Source: Acidobacteriota bacterium
GTDB lineage: Bacteria > Acidobacteriota > Polarisedimenticolia > J045
Direction: 5' to 3'
Assembly (NCBI GenBank): GCA_025456425.1
Contig: JALOKP010000013.1
Span: forward strand, 480 to 64,479
Length of the DNA stretch: 64,000 nucleotides
Each line of letters begins with the position of its first letter. Position 1 is the stretch's first letter. The notes beneath the pieces were generated by a model, which saw only the letters and a program-made list of their open reading frames with translations, was not told where the DNA came from and made no database searches. This document shows positions 40,846 through 63,300 of this stretch, piece by piece. Position numbers and translations under genes: made by a program.

Positions 40846-40922
<77 letters not shown>

Positions 40923-48828: not shown

Positions 48829-48964
48829 CGGCGTGCTCCCGGGCTCGTTCGATTGCGTCGGCAGCGGCGTACTTAAAGGGCGGAGTTCCCTCGCCGAGAG
48901 CCTCCTCTCGGCTCCCGTCATCCCGACGCGCCGCGGAGGCCGGCGGGGGCCGAAGGAGACCGCC

Positions 48965-49606
48965 ATGCGATATCGATTCTCCTCAGCGGTCCTCGGTGGG
49001 ATCGTCCTTGCGGCGCTGCTCTCTGCCGCGCCCGCCACCGCGGGCGAACCCGGGCGGGTTTCGCCTCCCGGGCAGCGCGATCTCGCCGGGATCTGGTACC
49101 GCGTCGTCTATGACGGCGCCGCCAGCGAAGCGGGCGCGATCATCGTCGTGACGAAGGTCGACGCCGACACCTGGATTGCCGCGCCCGTCGTGCACATTCC
49201 GCCGCTCGTCCCACCTCCCCAGTATCCCGGCTTCCCGCCGACCGACGCCGCAGTCCCGTGGATCGTCCAGTTCCAACGGACGGGACAGAACACCTATCTC
49301 GTCACCTCGCTGTCGTACTACTCGGCGACCCAGGCTCCAGCCGGGCAACCGAAGACCGCCTGGGCCGGTGTGTGCAACGGACCGGGCATCCAGCAGGACG
49401 AGGACACGCTGACGATCGACTGGTACTGCTTCGCGTCGTGCAACCCGTGCTTCCCGGGCTGCTGGAACTTCGGCAGCCCCTACATCGCCTGCGATCCGGG
49501 GCGCCTCTGGGATCCGTTCCAGGATCCCACCGCGTTCTGTTCTGCAGTCGTCACCCCGGTCGAGTTCCGGAAGGTGCCGATGAGCGACGGGTGCGTCCCC
49601 GACTAG
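48965..49606 (+). CDS. Secreted hypothetical protein with Cys-rich C-terminus
   Basis: AAGGAG SD, ATG 48965, signal peptide LGGIVLAALLSAAPATA. The C-terminal half has 8 Cys (WYCFASCNPCFPGCWNF...IACDP...FCSAV...GCVPD). Confidence 0.55.
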   Translation: MRYRFSSAVLGGIVLAALLSAAPATAGEPGRVSPPGQRDLAGIWYRVVYDGAASEAGAIIVVTKVDADTWIAAPVVHIPPLVPPPQYPGFPPTDAAVPWIVQFQRTGQNTYLVTSLSYYSATQAPAGQPKTAWAGVCNGPGIQQDEDTLTIDWYCFASCNPCFPGCWNFGSPYIACDPGRLWDPFQDPTAFCSAVVTPVEFRKVPMSDGCVPD

Positions 49607-49657
49607 GTCGCGGCGCTCCAGGAGGGGGGCGCGACCGAGGGACTGCGTGAGATCGAG

Positions 49658-49705
49658 ATTGGTCGGGGTGCCGAGATTTGAACTCGGGACCCCCTGCTCC
49701 CGAAG
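49658..49705. repeat. attL-type direct repeat: displaced 3' fragment of tRNA-Pro
   Basis: 48/48 nt identical to 58518-58565 (attggtcggggtgccgagatttgaactcgggaccccctgctcccgaag). Confidence 0.9.
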
Positions 49706-49922
49706 AACGGCGAAACTACTTAACCTGTTGACTTTACAGGTCGCATCCCGCTCCATCCCGCTCGAGTGCGCTCGGTCCTGCAAAGAGCATTGCAAAGAGC
49801 GCGGCGCGGGGGAGGTATTCTGATCGTGCTTTCCGGGGGCGCACCTCGAGCTCGAGGGGCGGGTTTCCCGACCCGCCAGCGCCCCCGGGTTTCTCTCCTC
49901 GGGACCGCCACGGGAGGCGGAC

Positions 49923-50621
49923 ATGAAGCACACGACCATCGAGGTGCGCCCGCTGAGTATCGTGCTGCGCAGGCGGTGTCTCGCTGACCTGCGGAAGCAG
50001 CTCGAGGTGCACGTCCGCGCGTTCGTCTACCGGCCGACGCCGCCGACGGGGCTCGCCGGGACGCTGCCGATAGTGCTGCCGGATGACGCGCCGGCCGACG
50101 TGCGTCGCGCCCTGGACGCGCTCGCCGACGCAGTCTCCGGCGTCATCCTGGGCGCTGACCGGAAGGTCAAGCTCCACCACCGATACGCGGTGGCGGTGCG
50201 GCGCGAGGCCCACGAACTTGCCGGCACGGCGTTTGCGATCGAGTCCGATGCCCGCGAAGTCGAGCCGATGGGGGAGTTCCTTCGACAGAACCGAGAGGCC
50301 GCGCGTCGGCTCGGGCGGCTCCGTACCAGCACGACCGGCCGGCGGTCTACCCTGCCGACCGATGACACGTTGCGCGCGCTGGTCGCGGCGCTCGAGGCGT
50401 GGGTCCCCACGGCGCCCAGCGGGGCGCAGGCGGCGGTCGCGGCGCTCGAGCGGGGCATCCTCGCGGACTACCCGCGCACGCGGGCAGAGCACCGCGTGAC
50501 GCTCACGGGGAAGCTCGGAACGGCGCTCGCGTCGCGCGCGACGCCAGCCGGGAAGGCGCGCAGGATCATCGGCGCGTGGTTCGGCGTTGATCTCCGGAGA
50601 GTCCCGAACCCGGCGAAATAG
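49923..50621 (+). CDS. Hypothetical protein (first island ORF)
   Basis: GGGAGG SD 5 nt before the ATG. Protein-like composition, no recognised motif. An antisense ORF (49734..50492) is judged spurious. Confidence 0.5.
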   Translation: MKHTTIEVRPLSIVLRRRCLADLRKQLEVHVRAFVYRPTPPTGLAGTLPIVLPDDAPADVRRALDALADAVSGVILGADRKVKLHHRYAVAVRREAHELAGTAFAIESDAREVEPMGEFLRQNREAARRLGRLRTSTTGRRSTLPTDDTLRALVAALEAWVPTAPSGAQAAVAALERGILADYPRTRAEHRVTLTGKLGTALASRATPAGKARRIIGAWFGVDLRRVPNPAK

Positions 50622-50702
50622 ACCCCCGGCGCGGCGTTCGGTTTCGCCTACATTCGCGTCGCATCGTGCTCACGACCGGACGAAGCCGGTCTGGAGAACA
50701 CG

Positions 50703-50906
50703 ATGCAGAAGCACGACGCGGGTCCGCCTCATGACGCGCTGATCTACTCCGAGCCGCACGCGGCCCGGATGCTCGGGCTGGCGCCGGAGACCCTTCGGAA
50801 GCTGCGGTCCCGGGGGCTGATCGCGGCCGTCCGGATCGGACGACGTGTGCTCTACGAGCGGCGCGCGCTCGAGCAGTTCGTCGCCGAGATGCGGCGGGCA
50901 TCGTGA
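50703..50906 (+). CDS. Excisionase/AlpA-like helix-turn-helix DNA-binding protein
   Basis: YSEPHAARMLGLAPETLRKLRSRGLIAAVRIGRRVLYERRALEQFV is the HTH_17/excisionase-family pattern. Confidence 0.7.
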   Translation: MQKHDAGPPHDALIYSEPHAARMLGLAPETLRKLRSRGLIAAVRIGRRVLYERRALEQFVAEMRRAS

Positions 50907-51091
50907 TCCGCCCCGAGCGGTTCCGGCTCCTCGCGGCGGTCAACCGAACCATGGCCGATGCCGCGCTCGAGGTCGCGTGGTGCCACGAGCGGGACGGCGC
51001 CGCTCCCCCGGCCGCCGTCGAGACCGTCGCGAAGGCCGGCGCGGAACTGTTCAACATCCTGGCCGAGCTGCGGGAGGCCGGGGATCTGTGA
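50903..51091 (+). CDS. Small hypothetical protein
   Basis: ATGA overlap with the preceding gene and GTGA overlap with the following HNH gene suggest it is translated. No motif. Confidence 0.35.
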   Translation: MIRPERFRLLAAVNRTMADAALEVAWCHERDGAAPPAAVETVAKAGAELFNILAELREAGDL

Positions 51092-51639
51092 GCCCGACCT
51101 GGCGCCAAGTGCTCTACCGGGCCTACGCGCTCGGACACTCGGCGAAGGTGGGCGACCACGCGCCGGAGCTGTTCGCGCGGGAACGCTGGCAAGTCTGTAT
51201 CGCCCGCCCCTCGCGAGACCTGACGCTCCGGCTCGCCCGACGGATGGAGTGTATCGCCTGCGGTGAGCCGATCGCTCCGAACGGGACCGGCGATCACATC
51301 GTCGCCCGATCGCTCTGGGCCGCCCCGGAGGGGGCCGAGAATTACCTCCCGCTCTGCCAGCCGCACAACTCGAGCAAGGGGAGAAAGAACCTCCTCGCCT
51401 GGTGGCACGGCAAAGGCCTGCCACCCGCGGGGCTCGTGCCTGACCCGCTGCTGCAATTCGCGCGAGTCACCTATGCCTACGTCGCGCGGAACACTCTCGC
51501 CGACATGGACGCCCCGGCCGACGTGGTCGAGGCGCTCGAGGCGCTCGAGCTCGCGCTGCTGCCTAGCGTCGAGCACGTCACCGTGCTGCGGCAGGCGGCT
51601 ATCGACCAGGCGGCCGCCGCCCGCAAGGGGGGGGCATGA
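51088..51639 (+). CDS. HNH endonuclease domain protein
   Basis: CIACGEPIAPNGTGDHIVARSLW...ENYLPLCQPHNSSKGRKN (C-x2-C ... DH ... N ... C-x2-HN). The GTG start is inferred from the overlap. Confidence 0.7.
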   Translation: MSPTWRQVLYRAYALGHSAKVGDHAPELFARERWQVCIARPSRDLTLRLARRMECIACGEPIAPNGTGDHIVARSLWAAPEGAENYLPLCQPHNSSKGRKNLLAWWHGKGLPPAGLVPDPLLQFARVTYAYVARNTLADMDAPADVVEALEALELALLPSVEHVTVLRQAAIDQAAAARKGGA

Positions 51640-52457
51640 CACCGCGCGAGATGCGGCTCCTCTGGGTCGGCCTCGGGTATGACCGCGGCTGGTCGTTCAC
51701 CCCGCTGGACGGGAAGAAACCGCGGCTGTTCGGCTGGACGAAAGCGCCGCGCGAGACGCGCGAGCAGGCGCTCGCCTGGGCCGCCGCCGGCAACGTGGGC
51801 GTGCGGTGCGGCATCGTCTCTTACGCGCTGCTCGTGGTCGACGTCGACGTCCCGAAGGGCGCGACCTGGGAATGCCCCGTCCAAACGATCACGGTTCGCA
51901 CGGGCGGCGGCGGCCGGCACCACTACTTCGCGATCCCCGGCGGCGTGCACGTCCCGAACAGCTCGGGGAAGATCGGCCCGCACGTCGACGTCCGCGCCGA
52001 CGGCGGACAAGTCGTCTACCCGGGAAGCGTCCACCCGGCGACGGGCAAGGTTTACGACTGGCTCCCCGGCTGCGCTCCCGGTGAGGCGCCGCTCCGGGCC
52101 CTGCCGCACGACATCTTCCGGCTGCTGACCGATCCCGTGCCCGAGACGCGGGCGGTGCCGCCGGCGGGGCGCGTGGCAGCCTCCTCACGCTATGCGGCCG
52201 TGGCGCTCGAGCGCGAGCGGGACCGCGTTGCCGGCGCCCCCCGCGGCAGTCGCGGGACCACCCTCTACAGCGCTGCGGCCCGCATGGGCGAGCTGGTCGG
52301 CGCCAGCCTGATCGACGCGGCGACGGTCCGCTCCGCCCTGCTCTGGGCCGCCGAAGTCAACGGGCTGGCCGAGAGCGACGGGGAGGCGTCCGTCCTGCGC
52401 GAGCTCGAGCGCGGCCTATCTCTCGGGATCGCGCACCCCCGGGCGGTGACCGCATGA
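51636..52457 (+). CDS. Bifunctional DNA primase/polymerase (Prim-Pol, AEP superfamily) with PriCT-like C-terminal domain
   Basis: LLVVDVDVP (DxD), TGGGGRHHYF, VDVRADGGQVVYPGSVH. C-terminus YAAVALERERDRVAGAPRGSRGTTLYSAAARMGELV. Confidence 0.85.
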   Translation: MTPREMRLLWVGLGYDRGWSFTPLDGKKPRLFGWTKAPRETREQALAWAAAGNVGVRCGIVSYALLVVDVDVPKGATWECPVQTITVRTGGGGRHHYFAIPGGVHVPNSSGKIGPHVDVRADGGQVVYPGSVHPATGKVYDWLPGCAPGEAPLRALPHDIFRLLTDPVPETRAVPPAGRVAASSRYAAVALERERDRVAGAPRGSRGTTLYSAAARMGELVGASLIDAATVRSALLWAAEVNGLAESDGEASVLRELERGLSLGIAHPRAVTA

Positions 52458-53704
52458 CAACCGTCGATGACGTGCTCGCCGTCTACCGCCGGCACCTCTA
52501 CCTCGACGACCCCGGAGCAGTCTGGGTCACGCTCGCAACCTACGTCGCGAACCGCCGCCCCGGGACCCCGCTCTGGCTCCTGGTCGTGGCGCCCCCGTCG
52601 TCGGGCAAGACGGAGTACCTCCTGCCCCTGGTCGGCGCCCCGGACGTGACGTTCGTCTCCACGATCTCCTCCGAGGGCGCCCTGCTCTCCGCGACCGCTC
52701 GCAAGGAGCGCGGCAAGAACGCGACCGGCGGGCTCCTCCGGCAGATCGGGACGTTTGGCGTGCTCGTCCTGAAAGACTTCGGGTCGATCCTCTCCATGAA
52801 CCGCGACGCCCGCGCCGCCGTCATGGCCGCGCTGCGCGAGGTGTTCGACGGCGAGTGGACGCGCACAGTCGGAAGCGACGGCGGGCAGTCTCTCGCCTGG
52901 GCCGGCAAGGTCGGCGCGATCGGCGCCTGCACCCCCGTGATCGACCGCGCCCATGCAGTCATGACCGCCCTCGGGGACCGCTTCCTGCTCTACCGCCCGG
53001 ACGCGACCGCGACCGACCCCATGTGCAGCCGGGCCCTGAACCGCGACGGGCTCGAGCGGTCCATGCGGGCCGACCTCTCCGCCGCCGTGACCGATCTCCT
53101 CGCGCCGCTCGACCTGTCCGCGAACCCCGCCCACCTCTCCCCCGCGGACGTGGTCCGCCTGACCGCCTGGGCGAAGCTGGTCGCCCGCGGCCGGGCCGCC
53201 GTCGAGCGCGACAGCTACACGCGAGAGATCGAGCTCGTCCTGGGCGCCGAGGGCCCCGCCCGGGTGGCGATCCAGCTCCGCCAGCTCCTCGACGGGCTCC
53301 GCACCCTCGGGGCGGACGAGACGAGCGCCTGGGGCCTGGTCGGCAAGGTCGCGCTGGATACCATCCCGATCCGCCGGCGGCGGCTGCTCGAGCACCTCCG
53401 CTCCGCGGCCGACCCGCTGGACACAACCGACCTCGCCGTGCTGATCGACCACCCGGCGAACACGACCCGCCGCGACCTCGAGGACCTCACCGCTTACAAG
53501 CTGGTACAGCGCATCCCGAACGGGCCGGGCAGAGCGGACCTCTGGCGTATTACCTCGTGGGCGCTCGAGGTCTGGGCCACCGCCGAGCGGGCAACCTTCT
53601 CCGAAATGTCGGAAGACGTACACACCCCCTTTAATGAATTCCGAAAATCACAGACAGACATTTCGGAGAAGGTTCCCCCAGCCGTCGCGAGGCCGGGCGC
53701 ATGA
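52454..53704 (+). CDS. P-loop NTPase, putative replicative helicase partner of Prim-Pol (DUF3987-like), with C-terminal winged-helix-like region
   Basis: Walker A VVAPPSSGKTE and Walker-B-like GVLVLKDFG. ATGA overlap with the Prim-Pol gene. Confidence 0.65.
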   Translation: MTTVDDVLAVYRRHLYLDDPGAVWVTLATYVANRRPGTPLWLLVVAPPSSGKTEYLLPLVGAPDVTFVSTISSEGALLSATARKERGKNATGGLLRQIGTFGVLVLKDFGSILSMNRDARAAVMAALREVFDGEWTRTVGSDGGQSLAWAGKVGAIGACTPVIDRAHAVMTALGDRFLLYRPDATATDPMCSRALNRDGLERSMRADLSAAVTDLLAPLDLSANPAHLSPADVVRLTAWAKLVARGRAAVERDSYTREIELVLGAEGPARVAIQLRQLLDGLRTLGADETSAWGLVGKVALDTIPIRRRRLLEHLRSAADPLDTTDLAVLIDHPANTTRRDLEDLTAYKLVQRIPNGPGRADLWRITSWALEVWATAERATFSEMSEDVHTPFNEFRKSQTDISEKVPPAVARPGA

Positions 53705-53825
53705 CCCTTTCAATCTTCGCGACCCCCGACCCATTTAACGCCCGGGTGCGAATTTGGGTGGGCGCGGGCTTCTCGCTCGGTCGCTGCGAAAAAACGGCGC
53801 CGGCGGCCGGCGGATCGGAGGCCCT

Positions 53826-54239
53826 GTGAGTCACGTCCAGCGTCCATGCTCGCAGCCCGGCTGCCCGGCCCTGGTCAGCCCGGGCACGGGCTCACGCTGC
53901 CCGGCCCATCGTCGGCGGGACACCCGATACCGGGACCGCGGCACCCGGCAGCAGCAGGGATACGGGGGCGCGTGGTTGGCGATCCGGGCCCGGGTGCTGC
54001 GCGAGGAGCCGATCTGTCCGTGCGGCCGGCCGGCGACCCAGGTCGACCACGTCCAACCTCTGACGCGAGGCGGGACCCACGAGCGCGGCAACCTGCAAGC
54101 GCTCTGCGCGTCGTGCCACAACGTGAAGACGAAGCGTCAAGCCGCGGCTGTTTTTTCGGGCGGAAGCCGTGAGAAGCCGCGCCCCAACCACACGCACGCG
54201 AATCCAAGAATCCGAACGGGGGCAAATCATGGGCGCTAG
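53826..54239 (+). CDS. HNH endonuclease (phage packaging-associated type)
   Basis: CSQPGCPALV...RCPAH...CPCGRPATQVDHVQPLTRGGTHERGNLQALCASCHNVKT. GGAGG SD 5 nt before the GTG. Lies directly upstream of terS. Confidence 0.8.
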   Translation: MSHVQRPCSQPGCPALVSPGTGSRCPAHRRRDTRYRDRGTRQQQGYGGAWLAIRARVLREEPICPCGRPATQVDHVQPLTRGGTHERGNLQALCASCHNVKTKRQAAAVFSGGSREKPRPNHTHANPRIRTGANHGR

Positions 54240-54675
54240 GGGTCCGATCAGGGGCACGCCGGCGGCGCGGTACTGCGGCCCGTCCGGTCTGACGGCGCAG
54301 GGCGGGACGCGTGCGAAGGCGATCGAGGCCGACCCGTTGCCGACCGAGCCGCCGAGCTGGTTGCCGGCGCGGGCGAAGGCCCTGTGGCGGGCCACGCTGC
54401 CGCAGATCACGGCCCGGGCGACGCGGGCGGACCGGGAGGTCTTCGCGCAATGGTGCCTGGCCTGCGCGGCCGTGCGCGACCTGGCGCCGATCGTGGAGAA
54501 GGACCCGGCCCGGGGAGACGAGCTGCGGGCCCAGCTCCGGGCGGCGGCGATGTTGGCTCGGGAGCTGGGGCTGACGCCGGCGAGCCGGTCGCGCATCCCC
54601 GAGGTCGAGGTGGTGGAGAAGCAGCAGGACGAGAAGGCCCGGCGCGAGGCGACGATCGCCGCGCTGATTCGGTGA
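54229..54675 (+). CDS. Phage terminase small subunit, P27 family
   Basis: PSWLPARAKALWRATLPQI...REVFAQWCLACAAVRDL...AMLARELGLTPASRSRI matches the remembered P27-family TerS pattern. Start at MGARGP overlaps the HNH end. Confidence 0.72.
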   Translation: MGARGPIRGTPAARYCGPSGLTAQGGTRAKAIEADPLPTEPPSWLPARAKALWRATLPQITARATRADREVFAQWCLACAAVRDLAPIVEKDPARGDELRAQLRAAAMLARELGLTPASRSRIPEVEVVEKQQDEKARREATIAALIR

Positions 54676-54822
54676 TGACAGCGGGTTGATCACGGCCAAG
54701 GTCCTTTTCGGCGCGTGAAGTTCTCGTCAACCGCGATCTACTTGACTCTCTTCGCAATTTCGCCCAATCTCCCCGCGCGAGCACGGAGCGACACGAGGGG
54801 GAGCTCTTTCGCGGAGGCGGCG

Positions 54823-55377
54823 ATGAAGAGAGTGGAATCGCATGCCCTAGTTGCCGCGTTAGCTCTGGGCGGATTTCTCATGGTTGCCGGCTGCAACCGT
54901 CCGGGGATAGACGGCAATGAACCTCTCGCCCCGAGAAGGACTGGGAGCGCGAAGGAATCCATCGAGAAGTGTAGTTCGGCGCTCCGGGCGAATCTGGGGA
55001 GACCATTCGTGGAATTCGGCCTGCGCGATCGCGCGGGAAATATTCACAGTACCCGGGGCTTCAACGACAAGACCACCGCCTTTTTTGTGGCTGGTGCCAA
55101 TTGCCCCGGAACCAGAATCTGGGTTCCGGAACTTGCTGAGAACGGCTGGAGAATTGGCGGGCTGCAGTACGACCGCCTTGTATTCCTGGCGGTGAGCGAT
55201 CGCGCTCTTCCGGTGCCTACCGGACTACCGCAGTACAAGGTCGAATGGCCAATGCCGGGCTACCTCTCCTCCTGCACGATGTACCCGGCGGTATACGTCG
55301 TGTCGGAAGACGGAGTGTTCACGGGATTCAAACTGGGCCGAGTGGGCGCCCCCATAGTGGCAGACGAAAGCAAGTGA
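54823..55377 (+). CDS. Lipoprotein with thioredoxin-like (TlpA/redoxin) fold, single-Cys active-site remnant
   Basis: Lipobox LMVAGC. FGLRDRAGNIHSTRGFNDKTTAFFVAGANCPGTRIWVPEL parallels the redoxin F-x-L-x-D-x-G...WCxxC...P-x-L layout, but with CPGT. Lies in the lower-GC segment. Confidence 0.55.
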   Translation: MKRVESHALVAALALGGFLMVAGCNRPGIDGNEPLAPRRTGSAKESIEKCSSALRANLGRPFVEFGLRDRAGNIHSTRGFNDKTTAFFVAGANCPGTRIWVPELAENGWRIGGLQYDRLVFLAVSDRALPVPTGLPQYKVEWPMPGYLSSCTMYPAVYVVSEDGVFTGFKLGRVGAPIVADESK

Positions 55378-55393
55378 GAATGGGAGGTGGTGT

Positions 55394-56092
55394 ATGAGGT
55401 ACAAGCGTATGTTCCTATGCGGGCTGCTCGTCCTTCTCTCTCTCTCAGGAGTATTCGTAGCCGCAGCCTCTCAGTGCGATTGGGATCCGGTCACCGAAGT
55501 TTGCAATGGCGCGTGTGAACCGGGCGAGCCTGACTGTGACCGCTGGTACGGCTGTGGCTGCTCGATCTGCGAGCCGTGGCAAGAGGGCTACTCGCTCGAG
55601 TTGGTCATGACTCGGGACGGCGGCTCGGGTCCTCCGCACAGCGTCGGGTCGGCATACTCCGGTTCCTTGGCGCAGTCGACCGGCGGAACTATTCAAAACC
55701 GCCGCGAATGGGGAACCGCCATCGATGCAGTTCCGGCGGTCTCGGATCTCCAGCTAACGGCGGAAGTTAGGCAGGGGGGGAACTCCGTTACGCGCAGACT
55801 TGTTATCACCTCACTCTACGCGAGGATCCCCACCTTCGTTCACTCTCGGACCAGTCCAGATAGCACCGGGGATAACGTGTTCGCGCTTTTTGGCGGCCTG
55901 CCAAGCGTGCTGACCCTGAACACTCAAACCGGAGCGGTCACGGGTACGCTCTACACCACCATGACGAATGCGTTCTACGGCGCTAATGACCGCATCGGGA
56001 TCGAGATGGACGTGACCGGGACGTTTGACTTCAACGCCATGCGACTCACCTTGGATCTCGGCGGCACCGGCATGCTGAAGACCGCAACCTAG
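55394..56092 (+). CDS. Secreted protein with N-terminal 7-Cys cluster and beta-rich C-terminal domain
   Basis: Signal peptide FLCGLLVLLSLSGVFVAAA. CDWDPVTEVCNGACEPGEPDCDRWYGCGCSIC. No family recognised. Confidence 0.55.
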   Translation: MRYKRMFLCGLLVLLSLSGVFVAAASQCDWDPVTEVCNGACEPGEPDCDRWYGCGCSICEPWQEGYSLELVMTRDGGSGPPHSVGSAYSGSLAQSTGGTIQNRREWGTAIDAVPAVSDLQLTAEVRQGGNSVTRRLVITSLYARIPTFVHSRTSPDSTGDNVFALFGGLPSVLTLNTQTGAVTGTLYTTMTNAFYGANDRIGIEMDVTGTFDFNAMRLTLDLGGTGMLKTAT

Positions 56093-56829
56093 CCGGGCTG
56101 CCTCGGCGCCGGCGGACTTGAACCGCCGGCGCCGTAGCGGCTTGAGAATGCAATGGCCGCCGCGCCGCCCGGCACGAATACCGTCAGCGTCAGGACCTGA
56201 GAACTCGACAGCGGTCCGAGCCAGAGCGGGGTGTCGGCTCTGAGGAAGTCCGTTGAGAACCGGATGACACCATACCCGAACAGTAGCGTGCCGATCGATC
56301 GCCAAGTAGGAGCGGGGCGGAGTAGATAGACTCCCAGCAGAGCAATCAGGAAGGCCTCATAGAGCGGAACAGGGTGCAGGGGCAGAGGGCCCAAGGATCT
56401 GCCCGCGGTGGTACCGAGGTTGTACCTGACTCCCCATGGCAGCCTTGTGGGCATGCCGAAGCAACAGCCCGCCATGAAGCACTGGATCCGACCGAGCACG
56501 GCCGATATGGCAACGGCGGGCGCCAAGCAGTCGAGGACTGGACCCACCGGCACGCGAAGAAGTAGAGCCCCAATCGCCGCGCCAGCGCAACCACCGATGA
56601 GTCCTCCCAGAAGAGACCGCGGAGGAGCGAGAGGAGCAGATACGGTCGCCTGCATTCCGGCGAGCCACGTCATCTGACCGAAAAAAACAAACCAGATGAA
56701 TCGGCTACCGACAAGCCCGCCTAGTACGGCCGGGCAGACCAATATCTTCGATCTAAGATCGAGACACCGCCAACTCACGCCCAGGAATACCGATACTCCG
56801 AGAGCGAGGGGCAGGAGTTCGTTTGGCAT
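56089..56829 (-). CDS. lgt: Prolipoprotein diacylglyceryl transferase (Lgt)-family protein, island-borne paralog
   Basis: LGRIQCFMAGCCFGMPTRLPWGV, HPVPLYEAFL and LLFGYGVIRFSTDFLRAD match Lgt signature blocks. Start at MPNELLP is inferred. Confidence 0.7.
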   Translation of the reverse strand: MPNELLPLALGVSVFLGVSWRCLDLRSKILVCPAVLGGLVGSRFIWFVFFGQMTWLAGMQATVSAPLAPPRSLLGGLIGGCAGAAIGALLLRVPVGPVLDCLAPAVAISAVLGRIQCFMAGCCFGMPTRLPWGVRYNLGTTAGRSLGPLPLHPVPLYEAFLIALLGVYLLRPAPTWRSIGTLLFGYGVIRFSTDFLRADTPLWLGPLSSSQVLTLTVFVPGGAAAIAFSSRYGAGGSSPPAPRQPG

Positions 56830-57215
56830 GCACGATCTCCGGCGCCAAACCGACGCGCAAGCGCTATATCCCGCTTTCCAGCAGCTGCTCAGGGTAGCAC
56901 AGGCGGAGGGGACTGAAGGCGACACCGCGGCCGGGTTGGTTCCGGCGCCGGTCGCGACGGCCGGCCAGGGAGCCAGAGAGGTTCAACCGCACGTCCGGGA
57001 GGGACGTTGACTTCGACGGCCGGCAAGGTGCAGTCTTGTTGCGTAGGCGGGACCGCCGAGTGCGTCAACACCCGACGGCCCCTAACCCGCGACGTGGAGA
57101 TAGCCACGATGCGAGCTGTCCGAAGCGTACCGCATCCTGCGATCGTTCGGGGCGTTCTGCCGCCGGCAAGTGCCGGTCAGCCGTCGTGCGTCTCCACCGC
57201 GAGGAGGAGGAGACG

Positions 57216-57407
57216 ATGACCACGCGCACGCTCGACCTGATCCCCCACGCACGTCTGGCGGACCTGCCGCCCGAGACACTCGACGCGATCCTGGCCGAGG
57301 TCGACGCGATGCTCGAGCACGCCGACGATACCGACCCGGCCCAGTACGAGGCGGCCGCGGACCGGTTCTTCGCCGCGATCCGGGCGGCGGCCGAGGGGGA
57401 GGAGTAG
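57216..57407 (+). CDS. Small acidic hypothetical protein upstream of int
   Basis: Strong SD GAGGAGGAGGAG 4 nt before the ATG. Its TAG stop abuts the integrase ATG (TAGATG). Confidence 0.4.
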   Translation: MTTRTLDLIPHARLADLPPETLDAILAEVDAMLEHADDTDPAQYEAAADRFFAAIRAAAEGEE

Positions 57408-58541
57408 ATGGCCGTTCACAAGTACGAACGGAGCGACGGGAGTACGGTCTACTTCGCCAGCTACCGCGGGCCGGACGGGAAGCGGATCACGGACGAGCCG
57501 AAGGGCCGGCGCACCGTGAAGCCGGACGCGTCCGCGAAGGAGCACGCCCGCGCCCGGCTGGCGGTCAGCAACTACGCGAGCACGCGCCGGACCGAAGTCG
57601 AAAACGGGACGTGGCAGCCGCTCGAGAGCGACCGGCCGAAGGAAAAGGGGCTCACGGTCCGGGCGCTCGCGAAGCGGTTCACGGCGCAATACCGGAGCCG
57701 GAACGGGAGCGTCACCTTCTACGAGCAGCGCCTCGCGGCGATCGACGACGAGCTCGGCGCCCTGCTCGCCTCGCGCGTGACGGTCGACGACGTGGAGCGG
57801 TTCAAGAATCGGCGGTCCGACAAGGCCGGGCCCGCGACGGTCAAGAAAGACCTCGTGGCGCTCTCCAAGGTCTTTCGGTGGGCGCAGCACCGCGGGCTCG
57901 TGAAGGACAACCCGGCCGAGGCCCGGCGCGTCCCCCGCCCTGCTGAGCCGCGGCGCAAGGTGGTGTTCCTCGACGATGACCAGGAGGCGGCGCTGCTCGC
58001 GGCCGCGGACCTGTGGCTCTCGCGCATCGTCCGGTGGATGCTCGGGACGGGCATGGACCGGGGTGAGGTCGTCGCGCTCCGGTGGGAGAACGTCGACCTC
58101 ACCCGCGGGACGGTCTACGCGCCGCGGGCGAAAACCGGGGTGGCCCGGAGCATCGCCCTGACCGACACCCTCCGGGCGCTGCTCGAGGAGTGCCGGAAGT
58201 CGGACCCCTCGCACGGGGGCGAGGTCGTCTCGCTCGAGGCCCGGCGGGAGGGGCTGGTCTTCCTGAACGCGCACGGCGGCCCGGTGACGGTGGCCGGGCT
58301 GAAGACTGCTTTCGTGAAGCTGTACCGGCGGGCGGGGGTGACGACCGGCTCGCCGGCGAAGGTGCTCCGGCACACGTTCGCGACGCGGGCCCTCGAGGCG
58401 GGCGTGCACCCCTCGGTGCTGGCCGATCTGCTCGGGCACACGAGCATTGCAAAAAGCCGAGACGGCGCACGCGCCCCGCAAGGGAGCCTGACGCATCATG
58501 CTGACTTTTCGGGGGTTATTGGTCGGGGTGCCGAGATTTGA
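57408..58541 (+). CDS. int: Tyrosine-recombinase-family integrase; the C-terminal catalytic Tyr motif could not be found (possibly defective)
   Basis: N-terminal SAM-like/arm region, GMDRGEVVALRWENVDL, AKTGVARSIAL, LRHTFATRALEAG, LLGHTSIA. The ORF then reads KSRDGARAPQG... into the att repeat without Y-x-H. Confidence 0.75.
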   Translation: MAVHKYERSDGSTVYFASYRGPDGKRITDEPKGRRTVKPDASAKEHARARLAVSNYASTRRTEVENGTWQPLESDRPKEKGLTVRALAKRFTAQYRSRNGSVTFYEQRLAAIDDELGALLASRVTVDDVERFKNRRSDKAGPATVKKDLVALSKVFRWAQHRGLVKDNPAEARRVPRPAEPRRKVVFLDDDQEAALLAAADLWLSRIVRWMLGTGMDRGEVVALRWENVDLTRGTVYAPRAKTGVARSIALTDTLRALLEECRKSDPSHGGEVVSLEARREGLVFLNAHGGPVTVAGLKTAFVKLYRRAGVTTGSPAKVLRHTFATRALEAGVHPSVLADLLGHTSIAKSRDGARAPQGSLTHHADFSGVIGRGAEI

Positions 58542-58565
58542 ACTCGGGACCCCCTGCTCCCGAAG
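58518..58565. repeat. attR-type direct repeat (3' 46 nt of the intact tRNA-Pro plus 2 nt)
   Basis: Identical to 49658-49705. It ends one base past the anticodon loop, on its 5' side. Confidence 0.9.
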
Positions 58566-58596
58566 CAGGTGCGCTACCAGGCTGCGCTACACCCCG
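58520..58596 (-). tRNA. tRNA-Pro (anticodon CGG)
   Basis: Hand-folded 77-nt cloverleaf: CGGGGTG acceptor, GCGC/GCGC D stem, CCTGC-TTCGGGA-GCAGG anticodon arm, CCGAG-TTCAAAT-CTCGG T arm, encoded CCA. Confidence 0.9.
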
Positions 58597-58638
58597 ACCG
58601 GTTCAGAGCCGGAGGAAACCGGTTCAGAGCCGGAGGAA
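58597..58638. repeat. Perfect 21-bp tandem duplication immediately upstream of tRNA-Pro
   Basis: accggttcagagccggaggaa occurs twice (58597-58617 and 58618-58638). Each unit contains CCGG-N7-CCGG. Confidence 0.85.
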
Positions 58639-58661
58639 ACTAGCCGATCGGGGGCGGTCTG

Positions 58662-60303: not shown

Positions 60304-63300
60304 ATGACGGCATTCCCGGAGCAGCTCCGGGCCGGAGCGCGGCGCGCCATCGCGGCGCGTGCGCTCGGCGTGGCGCTGACCCTGGGGGCCCTCGGGCTCG
60401 CCCTCGCGGCGCCTCCCCTTCCGGCGCCCGGCCCCGCCGCTGCCGACCCGCGCGCCGACTGGCTGCAACGCGTCGAACTGCTCCGGTCGGCCTGGCGCGA
60501 CCCCTCCGCCCCGGTACCGCCCCCCGAGGAGATCGCCCGGCGCGTCGCGGACGAGCGGCGGATGGAGCAGGCGCTCGTCGCGCTCACCGGCGCGCCGCTC
60601 GAGCCCTCCGCGATCGGCCGCGAGTGGAGCCGGATGGTCGAGCGCTCGCGCGACCCGGCGCGGCTCCTGGCGCTGGCGGAGGCCCTCGACTTCGACCGCC
60701 TCGCGCTGGTCGAGACGCTGGCGCGCCCGGCGCTGGTCGAGCGCCGACTGCGCGCCTGGTGGGAGGCGCGGGAGGCCGCGGCGGGGCCGGCCCGCGACGA
60801 GGCTGCTGCGCTGCGCGCCGCCGTCGAGGCGGGCGAGATCGACCCGCGCTCCCCTCACGCCCGGCGCGAGTCCGTCCTGTACCTGCCGTCCGGGTGCCCG
60901 GCGGAACTGCTGCAGCGCGACGACGCGCAGCCGACCGACGATCCCGCGCGCTGGCAGGAACTGCGCGGACGCTGGGCCGGCCTGGGCGAGCCGGGCCCGG
61001 TGGTCGCGGGCGGCGGCGGCGCGTTGTTCGAGGTGCGGCTGGCGGACCTCGACTGCGGCGCGGTCGAGGTCGCACGCTTCGCGGTGCCGGCCGTCTCCTT
61101 CGCCGCGTGGTGGGCCGGCGCGGCGGCCTCCTTCGAGCCCGCACCGGCCCCTCCGACGCTGACGCGCGAAGTCCTGGCCGGGCTGCCGCTCCCACTCGCG
61201 CCCGGGGCCCCGCTCGGCGGAGACGGACCCTCCGGCTGCGACGAGGCCTGGAACGGGGCGAGTCTCGACGACGTGCCCGACCCGCGCGAGGGACCCACCG
61301 CGGTCTGGACCGGCGCGGAGATGATCGTCTGGGGCGGTCGGGCCGGCGAGCCGCTCGCGACCGGCGGGCGCTACGACCCGGCGACCGACTCGTGGCGGTC
61401 GCTCCGGCAGCTCGGTGCGCCGGCCGCCCGCTCCTGGCACACCGCCGTCTGGACCGGGAGCCAGATGCTCGTCTGGGGCGGCATCGACGGCGACCCGCTC
61501 GGCAACGGGGCCGCGTACGATCCCGCGTCCGATGCCTGGAGCGCGATCCCCGCGCTGGGCGCCCCGGCGGCCCGCTCGCGTCACCTCGCGGCGTGGACCG
61601 GCAGCGAGATGCTGATCTGGGGCGGCGAGGGGCCGGGGTTCACCAACCTCGCCGACGGCGCGCGCTACGACCCCGCGTCCGGGGCCTGGAGCCCGCTCCC
61701 CGCGAGCGGCGCGCCCTCGCCGCGCAAGGACTTCGCCGGGGCCTGGACCGGGACCGAGCTGGTCGTCTGGGGCGGGTTCGACCTGGGCGTCTACCTGGGC
61801 GACGGCGCGGCCTTGAACCTGGCGGCGGGTACCTGGCGCCCGCTCTCCGGGCTCAACGCGCCGGCCGCGCGGCGCCAGCACACCGCGGTCTGGACCGGGA
61901 CCGAACTGGTCGTCTGGGGCGGCGCCAACGCGACGAGCTACTTCTTCAGCGGCGGCCGCTACGACCCCGCGACCGACTCGTGGCGCCCGACCAGCGAGGC
62001 GAACCCGCCCGCCGGTCGGCGCTACCACACGGCGGTCTGGTCCGGGTCGCGGATGCTGGTCTGGGGTGGCGAGTCGTCCGGTGCCGGCGAACTGCTCGCG
62101 ACCGGCGGCGCCTACGACCCGTCCGCCGACACCTGGAACGAGGTCCCGGCGACCGGCGCCCCGAGCGCGCGGCGGTTCCACGCCGCGGTCTTCACCGGCA
62201 CCGAGATGCTGGTCTGGGGCGGCCGGAGCGCGACGCGCAGCGAGGACACCGGGGGGCGCTGGGCACCCCTGGCGTCGTCCTGGCAGGCGATCTCGCGCGG
62301 AGCGGGACCGGCCCGGCGGGCGCGACACAGCGGGACGTGGACCGGTGCCGAGTTCATCGTGTGGGGCGGGGCCGACGAGGTCGACCTGGGCGACGGCGCG
62401 CGCTACGAGCCCGCGACCGACGCCTGGCGCGCGACGACCGCGCAGGGCGCCCCGGTCCCGCGCAAGGACCACACGGCCGTCTGGACCGGCACCCGGCTGA
62501 TCGTGTGGGGCGGTCGCCAGGCCGAGGACACGCGGCTCAACACGGGCGGCCGTTACGACCCCGCGGGGGATCGCTGGTTTCCAACCTCGGCGGCCGGCGT
62601 GCCGACGCCGCGCTGGGGCCACAGCGCGGTCTGGACCGGGAGCCGGATGATCGTCTGGGGTGGCAAGGAGACCGGGATCCCGACCGACACCGGGGGGCGC
62701 TACGACCCGGTCGGCGATGCCTGGCTGCCGACCGACACCAGCACGGCCCCGTCGTTCCGGCGCTGGCACACCGCCGTCTGGACCGGCAGCGAAATGATCG
62801 TCTGGGGCGGCGAGGCGGCCGAGATCCTCGGTGACGGGCGGCGCTACGACCCGGTGACCGACCGCTGGTCCTCGATGCGGACCGGCGGTGCGCCGCCGCC
62901 GCGCTACCACCACACCGCGGTCTGGACCGGGACCGAGATGATCGTCTGGGGCGGATACGGCGCGGGCCAGCTCGGTGACGGCGCCCGCTACCGGCCCGCC
63001 GATGACAGCTGGGCGGCGTTGCCCTCGCTCGGCGCCCCCGCGCCGCGCTACTACCACACCGCGGTCCTGACCGGGACCGAGATGATCGTCTGGGGCGGCC
63101 TCGGGAACGGCAGCCTGCAGAGCGGCGGGCGCTTCTCGCTGGCCAGCGGCACCTGGTCGCCGACCACGCTGGTCGAGGCTCCCGCGGCGCGCCACCTGCA
63201 TGCCGCCCGCTGGACCGGGGGCGAGATGATCGTCTGGGGCGGGCTGGGCGGCAGTACGCTGGGCAGCGGCAACCGCTACGCCCCGGGCGCCCAGGCCGAC

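What the first reader, a model, noticed from the sequence alone, without database searches (positions are those of the whole stretch)
49658..58565. tRNA-Pro-integrated 8.9-kb element with a phage-satellite-like gene set
A perfect 48-bp direct repeat (49658-49705 = 58518-58565) duplicates the 3' 46 nt of tRNA-Pro(CGG). The crossover boundary is at the anticodon loop, and the integrase lies next to the intact tRNA. This is the textbook tRNA-targeting island geometry.

The element carries int, an AlpA/Xis-like HTH, Prim-Pol, a P-loop helicase-like protein, two HNH nucleases and a P27-type TerS. Many of these are joined by 4-nt overlaps. There is no capsid, portal, TerL, tail or lysis gene.

That combination of integration, autonomous replication and a packaging-specificity subunit without a virion is the logic of PICI/P4-type satellites. 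I am not aware of it being characterised in this kind of very GC-rich lineage.
Basis: partly seen in the sequence, partly recalled or inferred. Interest (0 to 1): 0.85.

Follow-up and report, generated by a model that had tools for sequence, protein, structure and literature searches.

The report
Satellite-like mobile island in tRNA-Pro
An 8.9-kb mobile island sits in a proline tRNA gene of an uncultured soil-type Acidobacteria bacterium; it can copy itself and carries two phage DNA-packaging genes but no virus-particle genes, so it is most likely a parasite of a phage, of a known general kind but from a large uncharacterised family.

Summary
A perfect 48-bp direct repeat (49658-49705 = 58518-58565) duplicates the 3' 46 nt of tRNA-Pro(CGG). 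The same island occurs in more than 10 independent assemblies. A related metagenome contig (L144) shows the empty site, cusA - tRNA-Pro - pcm.

HMMs support the integrase, HTH_17 excisionase-type protein, Prim-Pol, one strong and one weak HNH, and a P27-type TerS. The 416-aa "P-loop" protein models as an MCM-like AAA+ helicase with a C-terminal winged helix. No capsid, portal, TerL, tail or lysis gene was found.

- The window's integrase has an 89-bp deletion that removes the catalytic Tyr. Other copies are intact (390 aa).
- A low-GC cargo encodes a lipoprotein, a secreted protein and an Lgt paralogue.
- There are arm-type repeats beside att and a conserved hairpin (candidate ori) after the helicase gene.

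The helicase family has more than 1,250 relatives across soil phyla. Fifteen relatives are delimited as 6-14 kb tRNA islands, and many carry HNH, TerS or TerL. A few carry a full head module, and distant relatives sit in real phages.

Best reading (about 0.55): a PICI-like, helper-dependent phage satellite. Packaging and the helper are unproven. Interest is moderate.

The parts
49658..49705 (.). attL core: copy of the 3' 46 nt of tRNA-Pro plus 2 nt
   Evidence: 48-nt perfect direct repeat (D5). In L004 and L005 the same core directly abuts the cusA end. In L144 the site is empty.
49779..49800 (+). Two tandem TGCAAAGAGC repeats: candidate arm-type integrase binding sites (P' arm)
   Evidence: TGCAAARAGC occurs 3 times in 64 kb (0.01 expected), always 60-95 nt from an att core. 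This is an inference by analogy with lambda-type attP.
49923..50621 (+). orf1, 232 aa, unknown function (ORFan)
   Evidence: High GC3 of 0.88. No hit in Pfam, PHROG, NCBIfam or PADLOC. An exhaustive HMMER search of 1.84 billion representatives found only itself plus one hit to a 1994-aa repeat protein that I judge spurious.
50703..50906 (+). HTH_17 excisionase/AlpA-like DNA-binding protein, 67 aa
   Evidence: Pfam HTH_17 4.8e-11; phrog_66 'excisionase and transcriptional regulator' 1.8e-6.
50903..51091 (+). orf3, 62 aa, unknown; 4-nt overlaps on both sides
   Evidence: ORF coordinates and GC3 of 0.90. No family hit.
51088..51639 (+). HNH-like nuclease (weak call), 183 aa
   Evidence: PHROG HNH families 1.8e-4 to 2.8e-3. 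HNH HMM built from relatives 4.7e-5. CxxC..DH..N..CxxHN motif read from the translation. No Pfam hit.
51636..52457 (+). Prim-Pol (archaeo-eukaryotic-type primase-polymerase), 273 aa
   Evidence: Pfam PF09250 1.2e-29; phrog_1156 DNA primase 3.7e-23.
52454..53704 (+). MCM-like AAA+ ATPase/helicase with C-terminal winged helix, 416 aa
   Evidence: Walker A GxxGxGKT is conserved. AF2 model has pLDDT 84 and pTM 0.84. Foldseek best matches are MCM subunits (E 7e-8), also NrS-1 and ASFV PrimPol helicase parts and SCCmec Cch. There is a weak IclR-type wHTH hit. More than 1,250 homologues exist, many fused to Prim-Pol + PriCT_1.
53589..53678 (.). 22-nt inverted repeat around a 46-nt A+T-richer spacer: candidate replication origin
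   Evidence: I25 (95% complementary). DNA fold z = -4.5. Relatives have an inverted repeat of at least 14 nt at the same position in 34% of 118 loci, against 1.9% of 209 control windows. The function is inferred.
53745..53758 (+). Motif GGTGCGAATTTGGG (with CCCCGAC about 15 nt upstream): speculative packaging (cos/pac) or regulatory site
   Evidence: Among 150 loci it is shared only with L091 and L092. These carry the closest HNH-TerS pair (70% aa) but a different replicase, and both contigs end exactly at this motif. No IMG/VR match. Weak evidence.
53826..54239 (+). HNH endonuclease, 137 aa, paired with TerS
   Evidence: Pfam HNH 8.3e-11; phrog_144 1.4e-26. It is 70% identical to the HNH of L091 and L092 and 38% to that of L030, which precedes TerS-TerL.
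54229..54675 (+). Terminase small subunit, P27 family, 148 aa
   Evidence: Pfam Terminase_4 4.5e-7 (30.6 bits, cutoff 24.7). phrog_83 3.7e-13. TIGR01558 2.8e-9, below its cutoff. A 27%-identical relative, P0149, sits in an HK97-like siphophage head-tail operon.
54715..55377 (+). Cargo: predicted lipoprotein (lipobox ...MVAGC; database gene call starts at 54823)
   Evidence: Signal peptide and lipobox read from the translation. Low GC3 of 0.69. No family hit.
55394..56092 (+). Cargo: secreted protein, 232 aa, unknown function
   Evidence: N-terminal signal peptide read from the translation. Only a sub-threshold He_PIG Ig-domain hit.
56089..56925 (-). Cargo: Lgt-like prolipoprotein diacylglyceryl transferase paralogue
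   Evidence: Pfam LGT 4.3e-27. NCBIfam lgt models score far below equivalog cutoffs. It lies in the 60-64% GC patch.
57216..57407 (+). Small ORF, 63 aa, directly upstream of int; unknown function
   Evidence: ORF and GC3. No significant family.
57408..58541 (+). Tyrosine integrase gene. In this window it is truncated by an 89-bp deletion after 58442, which removes the RYAH catalytic Tyr; the reading frame runs into attR
   Evidence: Pfam Phage_integrase 1.2e-23; phrog_1 1.6e-58. Compared with the intact 390-aa gene in L001, L002 and L003.
58448..58457 (+). TGCAAAAAGC: remaining P-arm repeat (two tandem copies in intact elements)
58518..58565 (.). attR core, which is the 3' part of the intact tRNA-Pro
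   Evidence: D5.
58520..58596 (-). tRNA-Pro(CGG), the integration target
   Evidence: ARAGORN; Rfam RF00005 65.8 bits.

Best explanation
The element is an integrative, self-replicating mobile element of the phage-satellite type, PICI-like in logic.

Proposed life cycle (shown steps and inferred steps are separated in the For line):
1. A tyrosine integrase, helped by the HTH_17 excisionase/AlpA-like protein, recombines a 48-bp core shared with the 3' half of tRNA-Pro(CGG). TGCAAARAGC arm sites flank the core.
2. Once excised, the circle replicates with its own Prim-Pol and an MCM-like AAA+ helicase. The helicase's C-terminal winged helix probably recognises the hairpin or inverted-repeat origin at the end of its own gene.
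3. The HNH-TerS(P27) pair then redirects the large terminase and capsids of an HK97-like cos-type helper phage to the element's DNA. With no capsid-size gene recognised, packaging may be as multimers.
4. The element thereby spreads and carries a low-GC cargo: a lipoprotein, a secreted protein and an Lgt paralogue.

The copy in this window has lost the integrase catalytic tyrosine. It is probably stuck unless complemented in trans.
For: SHOWN
- att repeats and the tRNA target.
- An empty site, cusA-tRNA-Pro-pcm, in a related genome (L144).
- The element is 99.95% identical in contigs whose flank differs: about 2% divergence, and an 820-bp gene is absent (L004, L005). This indicates recent mobility.
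- HMM support for int, HTH_17, Prim-Pol, HNH and TerS.
- An MCM-like fold for the 416-aa ATPase.
- No TerL, capsid, portal, tail or lysis hit in any ORF, and no conjugation gene.
- Arm-type repeats enriched beside att.
- An inverted repeat at the helicase 3' end is a positional family feature: 34% of loci against 1.9% of controls.
- Fifteen relatives are delimited as tRNA islands of 6.4-14.3 kb.
- TerL-like genes are in 26 of 121 relative loci and HNH in 22. Four delimited islands examined have terminase genes but no capsid or portal.
- Relatives occur as terminally redundant (circular) 10.2- and 15.9-kb IMG/VR contigs. L097 has Prim-Pol-helicase + prohead protease + TerL and no detected integrase or capsid.
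- A TerS relative sits in an HK97-like phage next to TerL and HNH.

INFERRED (from the SaPI/PICI and HK97 HNH-terminase literature; PMC10085698, PMC9618062, PMC5052747)
- Helper dependence.
- TerS/HNH-mediated redirection of packaging.
- The identity of the ori.
Against: - There is no direct evidence of excision, a circular form or encapsidation for this element. The 8979-bp Logan contig L003 (unit + 30 nt) is equally explained by a repeat-bounded assembly path.
- No helper phage was identified. None lies in the 64-kb window, where the second 'integrase' is XerC/D-like.
- Neither the element nor its TerS is in IMG/VR.
- TerL is absent here but present in many relatives. A low-GC cargo sits where TerL would be, so the element could be a degraded derivative.
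- No capsid-size or interference gene is recognisable.
- There is no Phage_AlpA (PF05930) hit, only HTH_17.
- The window copy has a defective integrase.
- Most relatives of the helicase carry no recognisable packaging gene at all, so the replication module by itself does not imply a satellite.
Confidence: 0.55

Rival explanations
1. The element is an integrated plasmid-like, self-replicating island that does not depend on phages. Int/Xis and the Prim-Pol/helicase give it an integrative-replicative life style. It moves by unknown means such as vesicles, natural transformation or mobilisation. The HNH and TerS-like genes are leftovers or have another DNA-binding or nuclease role.
For: - Most relatives of the helicase (37 loci with Int only, 27 with neither recombinase nor packaging gene detected, 13 with a serine recombinase only) show no packaging gene.
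- The Prim-Pol-PriCT-ATPase-WH architecture is described for integrative plasmids and other mobile elements in tRNA genes (PMC5862659).
- The helicase family has no hit in 50,697 GenBank phage genomes.
- No helper was found.
Against: - The family also has no hit in 72,556 plasmids.
- No relaxase, FtsK/Tra or T4SS gene was found.
- The HNH-TerS pair is intact and translationally coupled (11-nt overlap). It is conserved at 70% aa in another element that has a different replicase.
- Terminase, protease and head genes recur in relatives.
Confidence: 0.2
2. The element is a decayed remnant of a larger element, either a capsid-forming satellite or a small prophage of the same family. TerL and the head genes were lost and replaced by foreign low-GC cargo. 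It is no longer transmissible.
For: - Relatives show ATPase-HNH-TerS-TerL (L030, L124), and some continue with portal-protease-HK97 capsid (L078, L102, L108, L121, L126).
- Distant relatives sit in genuine phage contigs.
- In the window, TerS is followed at once by a 60-64% GC patch.
- The window copy carries an inactivating 89-bp deletion in int.
Against: - No TerL or head-gene fragment remains (hmmsearch --max).
- All other genes are intact and tightly coupled.
- att cores are perfect and arm sites are present.
- Other copies have an intact integrase.
- The element is near-identical across strains with diverged flanks, and the site is empty in a relative. That fits a recently mobile unit.
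- TerS-only satellites (SaPIs) are functional precedents.
- The 8.9-kb size lies within the 6-14 kb range of delimited relatives.
Confidence: 0.2
3. The repeat and island are an assembly or chimera artefact.
For: The window differs from other assemblies by an 89-bp deletion and a 21-nt tandem copy. This shows there is some assembly or strain variation.
Against: The same structure occurs in NCBI, JGI, ENA and Logan assemblies from many runs. The empty site has exactly the predicted junction.
Confidence: 0.01

Closest known systems
PICIs (phage-inducible chromosomal islands, including SaPIs and Gram-negative PICIs; SatelliteFinder model, PMC10085698; PMC6092414)
   Same: - Size class of about 9 kb.
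- Site-specific integration with a tyrosine integrase.
- A small MerR/excisionase-type HTH regulator.
- Its own primase + replicative helicase with an origin right after the rep gene.
- Its own TerS, accessory cargo at the end, and no tail, lysis or capsid genes.
- Circular gene order int - regulator - pri/rep - ori - packaging - cargo.
- An HNH is occasionally present in PICIs.
   Different: - The replicase is a split Prim-Pol + MCM-like AAA+/wHTH protein from a family with no Pfam, NCBIfam or PHROG model.
- TerS is of the P27 (Terminase_4) type and is coupled to an HNH.
- No Phage_AlpA hit, and no recognisable cpm, ppi or rpp interference gene.
- att lies between int and the rest, so int is at the far end and co-oriented.
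- The host is an Acidobacteria MAG with 73% GC.
- Helper induction is untested.
VEIMEs, marine virion-encapsidated integrative mobile elements (Eppley et al. 2022, PMC9618062)
   Same: - Small (under 5 to 17 kb) integrative elements.
- Integrase, primase/helicase, AlpA-type regulator and sometimes TerS and HNH.
- No major capsid gene.
- Proposed packaging as concatemers in full-size helper capsids.
   Different: VEIMEs are defined by being found inside virions. That evidence is missing here, no sequence relationship was tested, and the habitat and host phyla differ.
Capsid-forming PICIs (cf-PICI) and mycobacterial phiRv1/phiRv2-like PICI candidates (PMC10085698, PMC10654092)
   Same: - HNH + TerS packaging genes.
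- Some relatives of this element's helicase family (L078, L102, L108, L121, L126) carry HNH-(TerS)-TerL-portal-protease-HK97 capsid downstream of the same replication module.
   Different: This element has no TerL, portal, protease, capsid or connector genes.
SCCmec Cch / SaPI Rep type mobile-element helicases and AEP-PriCT-ATPase-WH replicases of integrated mobile elements (PMC5862659; PDB 5dgk)
   Same: - A primase-polymerase is associated with an MCM-like or other AAA+/P-loop helicase and a C-terminal winged helix, on tRNA-integrated elements.
- There is a fold-level match to MCM and to Cch.
   Different: Similarity is at fold level only (10-16% identity). Here Prim-Pol and the helicase are separate, translationally coupled genes, whereas many relatives have the fusion.
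P4-like satellites
   Same: - Integrase.
- An AlpA-like HTH.
- A primase + helicase + origin-binding winged-helix function.
- Dependence on a cos helper is conceivable.
   Different: No psu, delta, sid or epsilon homologue was found. The primase type differs (AEP Prim-Pol rather than the P4 alpha type). P4 has no TerS or HNH.

Membership tests
tRNA-integrating genomic island (tyrosine-recombinase type) | Direct repeats formed by duplication of the tRNA 3' part, with the integrase adjacent to the intact tRNA | tested here: met
tRNA-integrating genomic island (tyrosine-recombinase type) | An unoccupied target site exists in related genomes | tested here: met
   L144 reads cusA end - 24 nt - intact tRNA-Pro - pcm (95% aa identity on both flanks).
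tRNA-integrating genomic island (tyrosine-recombinase type) | Catalytically complete integrase (R..HxxR..H/W..Y) | tested here: inconclusive
   The 390-aa gene of L001, L002 and L003 is intact. The window copy lacks the Tyr because of an 89-bp deletion.
PICI (SatelliteFinder core set, PMC10085698) | Integrase | tested here: met
   Pfam and PHROG.
PICI (SatelliteFinder core set, PMC10085698) | AlpA-type or other master regulator | tested here: inconclusive
   HTH_17 (PF12728) 4.8e-11 and phrog_66 'excisionase and transcriptional regulator' match. Phage_AlpA is not among the hits.
PICI (SatelliteFinder core set, PMC10085698) | Own primase/replicase module | tested here: met
   Prim-Pol 1.2e-29 plus an MCM-like helicase fold. 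Homology to the PICI Pri-Rep profiles themselves could not be tested because the SatelliteFinder HMMs are not available.
PICI (SatelliteFinder core set, PMC10085698) | Small terminase subunit | tested here: met
   Terminase_4 and phrog_83.
PICI (SatelliteFinder core set, PMC10085698) | Capsid-morphogenesis or packaging-interference gene (cpm, ppi, rpp) | tested here: not met
   No such hit in Pfam or PHROGs. orf1, orf3 and orf12 are ORFans and could hide one.
PICI (SatelliteFinder core set, PMC10085698) | Absence of tail, holin and capsid genes | tested here: met
PICI (SatelliteFinder core set, PMC10085698) | Helper-phage-induced excision, replication and packaging | not testable with these tools
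   This needs induction experiments or virome reads.
Capsid-forming PICI | Own major capsid, portal, protease, head-tail connectors and TerL | tested here: not met
   None detected.
P4-like satellite | psu, delta, sid, epsilon and alpha core genes | tested here: not met
   PHROG and Pfam searches give no such hit on any ORF.
VEIME | Recovered from virus particles as monomer or concatemer | not testable with these tools
   The element is absent from IMG/VR. No virome reads are accessible.
ICE / IME / actinomycete AICE | Relaxase, T4SS, or an FtsK/SpoIIIE-type Tra protein | tested here: not met
   No such Pfam hit on any ORF.
Temperate prophage (intact) | Virion structural and lysis modules; genome of tens of kb | tested here: not met
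   8.9 kb with no structural or lysis hit.

The most novel reading that the evidence does not exclude
The element would be one representative of a very large, undescribed super-family of small integrative elements in soil and sediment phyla: Acidobacteriota, Actinomycetota, Chloroflexota, Gemmatimonadota, Dormibacterota and some Alphaproteobacteria.

The family would be defined by a Prim-Pol + MCM-like/wHTH helicase with a hairpin origin after the helicase gene. It would plug in packaging or hijacking modules of graded completeness:
- none
- HNH-TerS
- TerS-TerL
- protease + TerL
- a full HK97-type head module

That is a continuum from integrative plasmid to capsid-forming satellite. It would make phage satellites a major feature of phyla where none has been characterised.
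Probability: 0.35. Interest if true: 0.65.

Novelty: new variant of a known kind. Interest (0 to 1): 0.45.

Why it matters
Phage satellites shape gene transfer and phage defence. They have been characterised almost only in Proteobacteria, Firmicutes, some marine bacteria and a few Actinobacteria.

If this island and its more than 1,000 relatives are satellites, several things follow:
- Satellite-helper systems would be common in Acidobacteriota and other hard-to-culture soil phyla.
- The Prim-Pol/MCM-like helicase would give a simple marker for finding them.
- The family would offer a natural series, from TerS-only through terminase-only to capsid-forming, for studying how hijacking modules are gained and lost.

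The Lgt-plus-lipoprotein cargo also hints at cell-envelope modification carried by such elements.

As it stands this is a well-supported mobile island with a plausible but untested satellite life style.

Tried and rejected
- **Second island or helper prophage near tRNA-Arg (40846-40922).** No att repeat was found. The 'integrase' at 37169-about 38100 is XerC/D-like, next to accA, ssb and mazG. Rejected.
- **L003 as proof of a circular form.** This 8979-bp Logan contig equals the unit plus 30 nt. A repeat-bounded path with a clipped right-flank tip gives the same contig, so it is not decisive.
- **Degenerate older att copy between cusA and attL.** None scored above shuffled-sequence scores.
- **TerL pseudogene in the cargo region.** None found.
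- **IMG/VR scans.** Scans for TerS, an element-specific 37-mer and the bipartite motif found nothing.
- **TerS against GenBank phages.** Only a weak hit to the Streptomyces phage Chymera TerS (38% over 89 aa, E 6e-4). No helper candidate emerged.
- **Helicase against PDB, Pfam, NCBIfam and PADLOC by sequence.** Only weak wHTH or Walker A hits. A fold search was needed.
- **PADLOC on cargo and ORFans.** No defence system; only generic HNH hits.
- **Rfam.** Only the tRNA.
- **Promoter and terminator scans.** Nothing above chance.
- **orf1 exhaustive search.** ORFan. The one extra hit is to an unrelated repeat protein that I judge spurious.
- **Look-ups of flanking proteins for empty sites among identical strains.** Only occupied or truncated contigs were found. 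The empty site came from the exact 48-mer scan instead.

Full report
**1. Observation**

The window has 72.9% GC. It holds a perfect 48-bp direct repeat at 49658-49705 and 58518-58565, spaced 8860 nt. ARAGORN places tRNA-Pro(CGG) at 58520-58596 on the minus strand with the anticodon at position 35, and Rfam agrees. The repeat is therefore tRNA positions 32-77 plus two bases, which is the classic 3'-half duplication starting in the anticodon loop.

The element has 69.0% GC, with a 60-64% GC patch at about 54.7-57.0 kb. The structure is not an artefact. The same attL-element-attR arrangement is present, 99.9-100% identical, in several independent sources:
- an NCBI MAG (GCA_025490975.1, whose TerS is named 'Acidobacteria bacterium')
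- a 336-kb JGI contig
- several ENA and Logan contigs

**2. Genes**

GC3 and frame analysis and profile searches give the following genes. All are on the + strand except lgt.

| Gene | Coordinates | Evidence |
|---|---|---|
| orf1 | 49923-50621 | ORFan even in an exhaustive 1.84-billion-protein search |
| HTH_17 excisionase/AlpA-like protein | 50703-50906 | Pfam 4.8e-11 |
| orf3 | 50903-51091 | no family hit |
| HNH-like protein (weak) | 51088-51639 | PHROG 1.8e-4; own HMM 4.7e-5 |
| Prim-Pol | 51636-52457 | Pfam 1.2e-29 |
| P-loop protein, 416 aa | 52454-53704 | see below |
| HNH | 53826-54239 | Pfam 8e-11; phrog_144 1e-26 |
| P27-family TerS | 54229-54675 | Terminase_4 4.5e-7; phrog_83 3.7e-13 |
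| lipoprotein | 54715-55377 | lipobox read from sequence |
| secreted protein | 55394-56092 | signal peptide read from sequence |
| Lgt-like gene (minus strand) | 56089-56925 | Pfam LGT 4e-27 |
| small ORF | 57216-57407 | no family hit |
| integrase | 57408-58541 | Pfam 1.2e-23; phrog_1 1.6e-58 |

Four successive 4-nt overlaps link the HTH gene through the helicase gene. HNH and TerS overlap by 11 nt.

No ORF hits a capsid, portal, large terminase, tail, lysis, relaxase, FtsK or T4SS family. A TerL HMM built from relatives finds no remnant in the window.

**3.

(a) The window's integrase is damaged. Relative to L001, L002 and L003 it lacks 89 bp between 58442 and 58443. The deletion removes '...SAAIVDRYAHATDRLRREAMLALESRGLQK', including the catalytic tyrosine, and shifts the frame so that the ORF runs into attR. 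The intact protein is 390 aa. This copy is therefore probably immobile unless complemented, or the deletion is an assembly or strain variant.

(b) TGCAAARAGC occurs three times in the 64-kb window (0.01 expected by chance). All three lie 60-95 nt from an att core: two tandem copies at 49779-49800 and one at 58448-58457. Intact copies have two on that side as well. In the excised circle these would flank the core like arm-type integrase sites.

(c) A 22-nt inverted repeat lies at 53589-53610 / 53657-53678. It is 95% complementary, and the DNA fold has z = -4.5. It sits at the 3' end of the helicase gene.

(d) The cargo includes an Lgt paralogue together with a lipoprotein.

**4. Insertion and mobility**

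An exact-match scan of JGI metagenome contigs with the 48-mer returned L144. It reads cusA C-terminus (95% aa identity) - 24 nt - intact tRNA-Pro - pcm (95% aa, 87% nt), with nothing in between. This is the predicted empty site.

L004 and L005 carry the element at 99.95% identity (3-4 differences in 8242 nt). Their left flank differs in two ways: about 2% substitutions in the last 150 nt of cusA, and absence of the 820-bp 'secreted protein' gene that separates cusA from attL in the window. An element far more conserved than its flank, plus an empty site in a relative, indicates a recently mobile unit.

A Logan contig of exactly unit length + 30 nt (L003) is compatible with a circle. It is equally explained by the assembly graph, so I do not count it as evidence.

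**5. The replication module**

The 416-aa protein has no Pfam, NCBIfam, PHROG or PADLOC family, and no PDB relative by sequence beyond a weak IclR-type winged helix and the Walker A motif.

An AlphaFold model built on 28 homologues is confident (pLDDT 84, pTM 0.84). Its best Foldseek matches are:
- MCM2-7 subunits (E down to 7e-8, TM about 0.4)
- MCM8/9
- BchI
- the helicase parts of the NrS-1 and ASFV primase-polymerases
- SCCmec Cch
- RuvB and ORC/Cdc6

It is therefore an MCM-like AAA+ ATPase with a C-terminal winged helix. That is the architecture described for AEP-PriCT-ATPase-WH replicases of integrated mobile elements (PMC5862659). Many homologues are in fact fused to Prim-Pol + PriCT_1.

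In 118 related loci, an inverted repeat of at least 14 nt lies within -200 to +300 nt of the helicase stop codon in 34%, against 1.9% of 209 control windows. For repeats of at least 16 nt the figures are 21% against 0%. This positional conservation supports a cis-acting site, most simply the origin, as in SaPIs where the ori follows rep.

The unrelated element L091 carries the closest HNH-TerS pair. It shows obvious GGTGTCTA iterons right after its DUF927 helicase gene.

**6. The family**

The helicase has more than 1,250 homologues at 45-52% identity. It has none in 50,697 GenBank phage genomes or 72,556 plasmids by tblastn.

A scan of GTDB species genomes returned 80 loci in Actinomycetota, Chloroflexota, Acidobacteriota, Gemmatimonadota, Dormibacterota, Planctomycetota and Alphaproteobacteria. 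IMG/VR returned 41 contigs, mostly 7.5-18 kb.

Fifteen genome loci are delimited by tRNA-3' direct repeats as islands of 6.4-14.3 kb.

Iterative HMMs over the 121 loci that carry a helicase homologue find:

| Feature | Loci |
|---|---|
| tyrosine integrase | 62 |
| serine recombinase | 29 |
| HTH_17 | 50 |
| HNH | 22 |
| TerL-like gene | 26 |
| recognisable TerS | 7 |

These counts include L091 and L092, which were searched too and carry HNH and TerS but no helicase homologue. The usual order is helicase-HNH-TerS-TerL.

- Four delimited islands with TerL (L013 9.6 kb, L077 9.5 kb, L036, L061) have no capsid, portal or protease hit.
- L097 is a terminally redundant, hence circular, 10.2-kb contig of 74% GC. 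It carries Prim-Pol-helicase, a prohead protease and TerL, with no detected integrase or capsid.
- Other relatives (L078, L102, L108, L121, L126) continue with portal, protease and an HK97-type capsid.
- Some long IMG/VR contigs with more distant helicases (31-42% identity) are genuine phages, with portals, proteases, ERF and methylases.

The replication module is thus shared by a spectrum from plain integrative elements to capsid-forming elements and phages. The window's element sits at the 'HNH + TerS only' grade.

**7. Packaging genes and helper**

The HNH-TerS pair is 70% identical to a pair in L091 and L092, behind a different (DUF927) helicase. It is 30-38% identical to the pair in an Acidobacteriota contig (L030), where TerL follows.

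A profile search found a 27%-identical TerS (P0149) in a complete HK97-like siphophage operon: TerS-TerL-HNH-portal-ClpP-capsid-connectors-tail. That fits the established role of HNH proteins as partners of the terminase in HK97-like cos phages. It suggests the helper is of that type.

No helper is present in the window, and none could be identified elsewhere.

A 14-nt motif, GGTGCGAATTTGGG, with CCCCGAC about 15 nt upstream, lies at 53745-53758 upstream of the HNH gene. Among all 150 loci it recurs only in L091 and L092, where both contigs end exactly at it. It is a speculative cos/pac candidate.

**8. Interpretation**

The best-supported model, at about 0.55, is a PICI-like phage satellite:
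1. Int and Xis handle integration at and excision from tRNA-Pro.
2. Prim-Pol and the MCM-like helicase replicate the circle from the hairpin origin.
3. HNH-TerS redirect a helper's TerL and capsids.
4. The cargo is carried along.

Integration, the empty site, the gene identities and the family pattern are shown. Helper dependence, packaging and the ori are inferred.

The rivals are:
- a phage-independent integrative replicon (0.2)
- a decayed derivative of a terminase- or capsid-bearing relative (0.2; the window copy at least has a dead integrase)
- an artefact (about 0.01)

**9. Comparison and novelty**

In logic the element matches PICIs (int, regulator, pri-rep, TerS, no virion genes; PMC10085698). 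It also matches the capsid-less marine VEIMEs (PMC9618062). It fails the tests for cf-PICI, P4-like, ICE/AICE and prophage membership.

It differs from described PICIs in four ways:
- its replicase family
- the HNH-coupled P27 TerS
- the lack of any recognisable interference gene
- its host phylum

A full-text search found no paper describing a phage satellite in Acidobacteria.

I rate it a new variant of a known kind, with moderate interest of 0.45. The family-wide reading (section 6) is the more interesting lead.

Noticed in passing
window 48834-49657: The 'secreted protein' gene between cusA and attL is absent from the occupied strains L004 and L005 and from the empty-site contig L144. Its right boundary coincides exactly with the att core and its left boundary lies in the last codons of cusA. 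It may be the remnant of an earlier island at the same tRNA, but no old att copy was found.
   Followed up: partly
window 58597-58640: A 21-nt tandem repeat (ACCGGTTCAGAGCCGGAGGAA, 2.1 copies) lies just upstream of the tRNA-Pro gene. L001 and L002 are 21 nt shorter somewhere in the right flank, and I infer the missing copy is here from the coordinate offset. The polymorphism probably breaks short-read assemblies here (L135 ends at it).
   Followed up: partly
window 37169-38100 (minus strand): A second tyrosine recombinase (Phage_integrase 4.8e-51 + SAM_1) lies about 2.7 kb from tRNA-Arg(CCT). It is XerC/D-like and flanked by accA, ssb and mazG, so it is housekeeping and not a second island or helper prophage.
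   Followed up: yes
window 56089-56925 with 54715-56092: A mobile-element-borne Lgt paralogue sits next to a lipoprotein gene and a secreted-protein gene, all at 60-64% GC in a 73% GC genome. This is an unusual cargo and may modify the envelope or act in superinfection exclusion. No homologue or context search was run.
   Followed up: no
L091 2140-2450 and L091 4341-4380 (same in L092): This element has the closest HNH-TerS pair but a DUF927 helicase. It has a dense array of GGTGTCTA iterons after the helicase gene, a textbook ori. Both contigs stop at the shared GGTGCGAATTTGGG motif, which could be a physical DNA end (cos).
   Followed up: partly
L097 (IMG/VR 3300005713_000426), whole contig: A circular 10.2-kb, 74% GC element with a 110-bp terminal redundancy. 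It carries fused Prim-Pol-helicase, an S78 prohead protease and a (split) TerL. No integrase, capsid or portal was detected. It may be a non-integrating satellite or plasmid of the same family.
   Followed up: partly
window 61296-63786: A large gene on the right flank (a 1679-aa product in L001) contains 144-147-nt tandem repeat arrays. The repeat copy number makes the window and L001 align ambiguously there.
   Followed up: no
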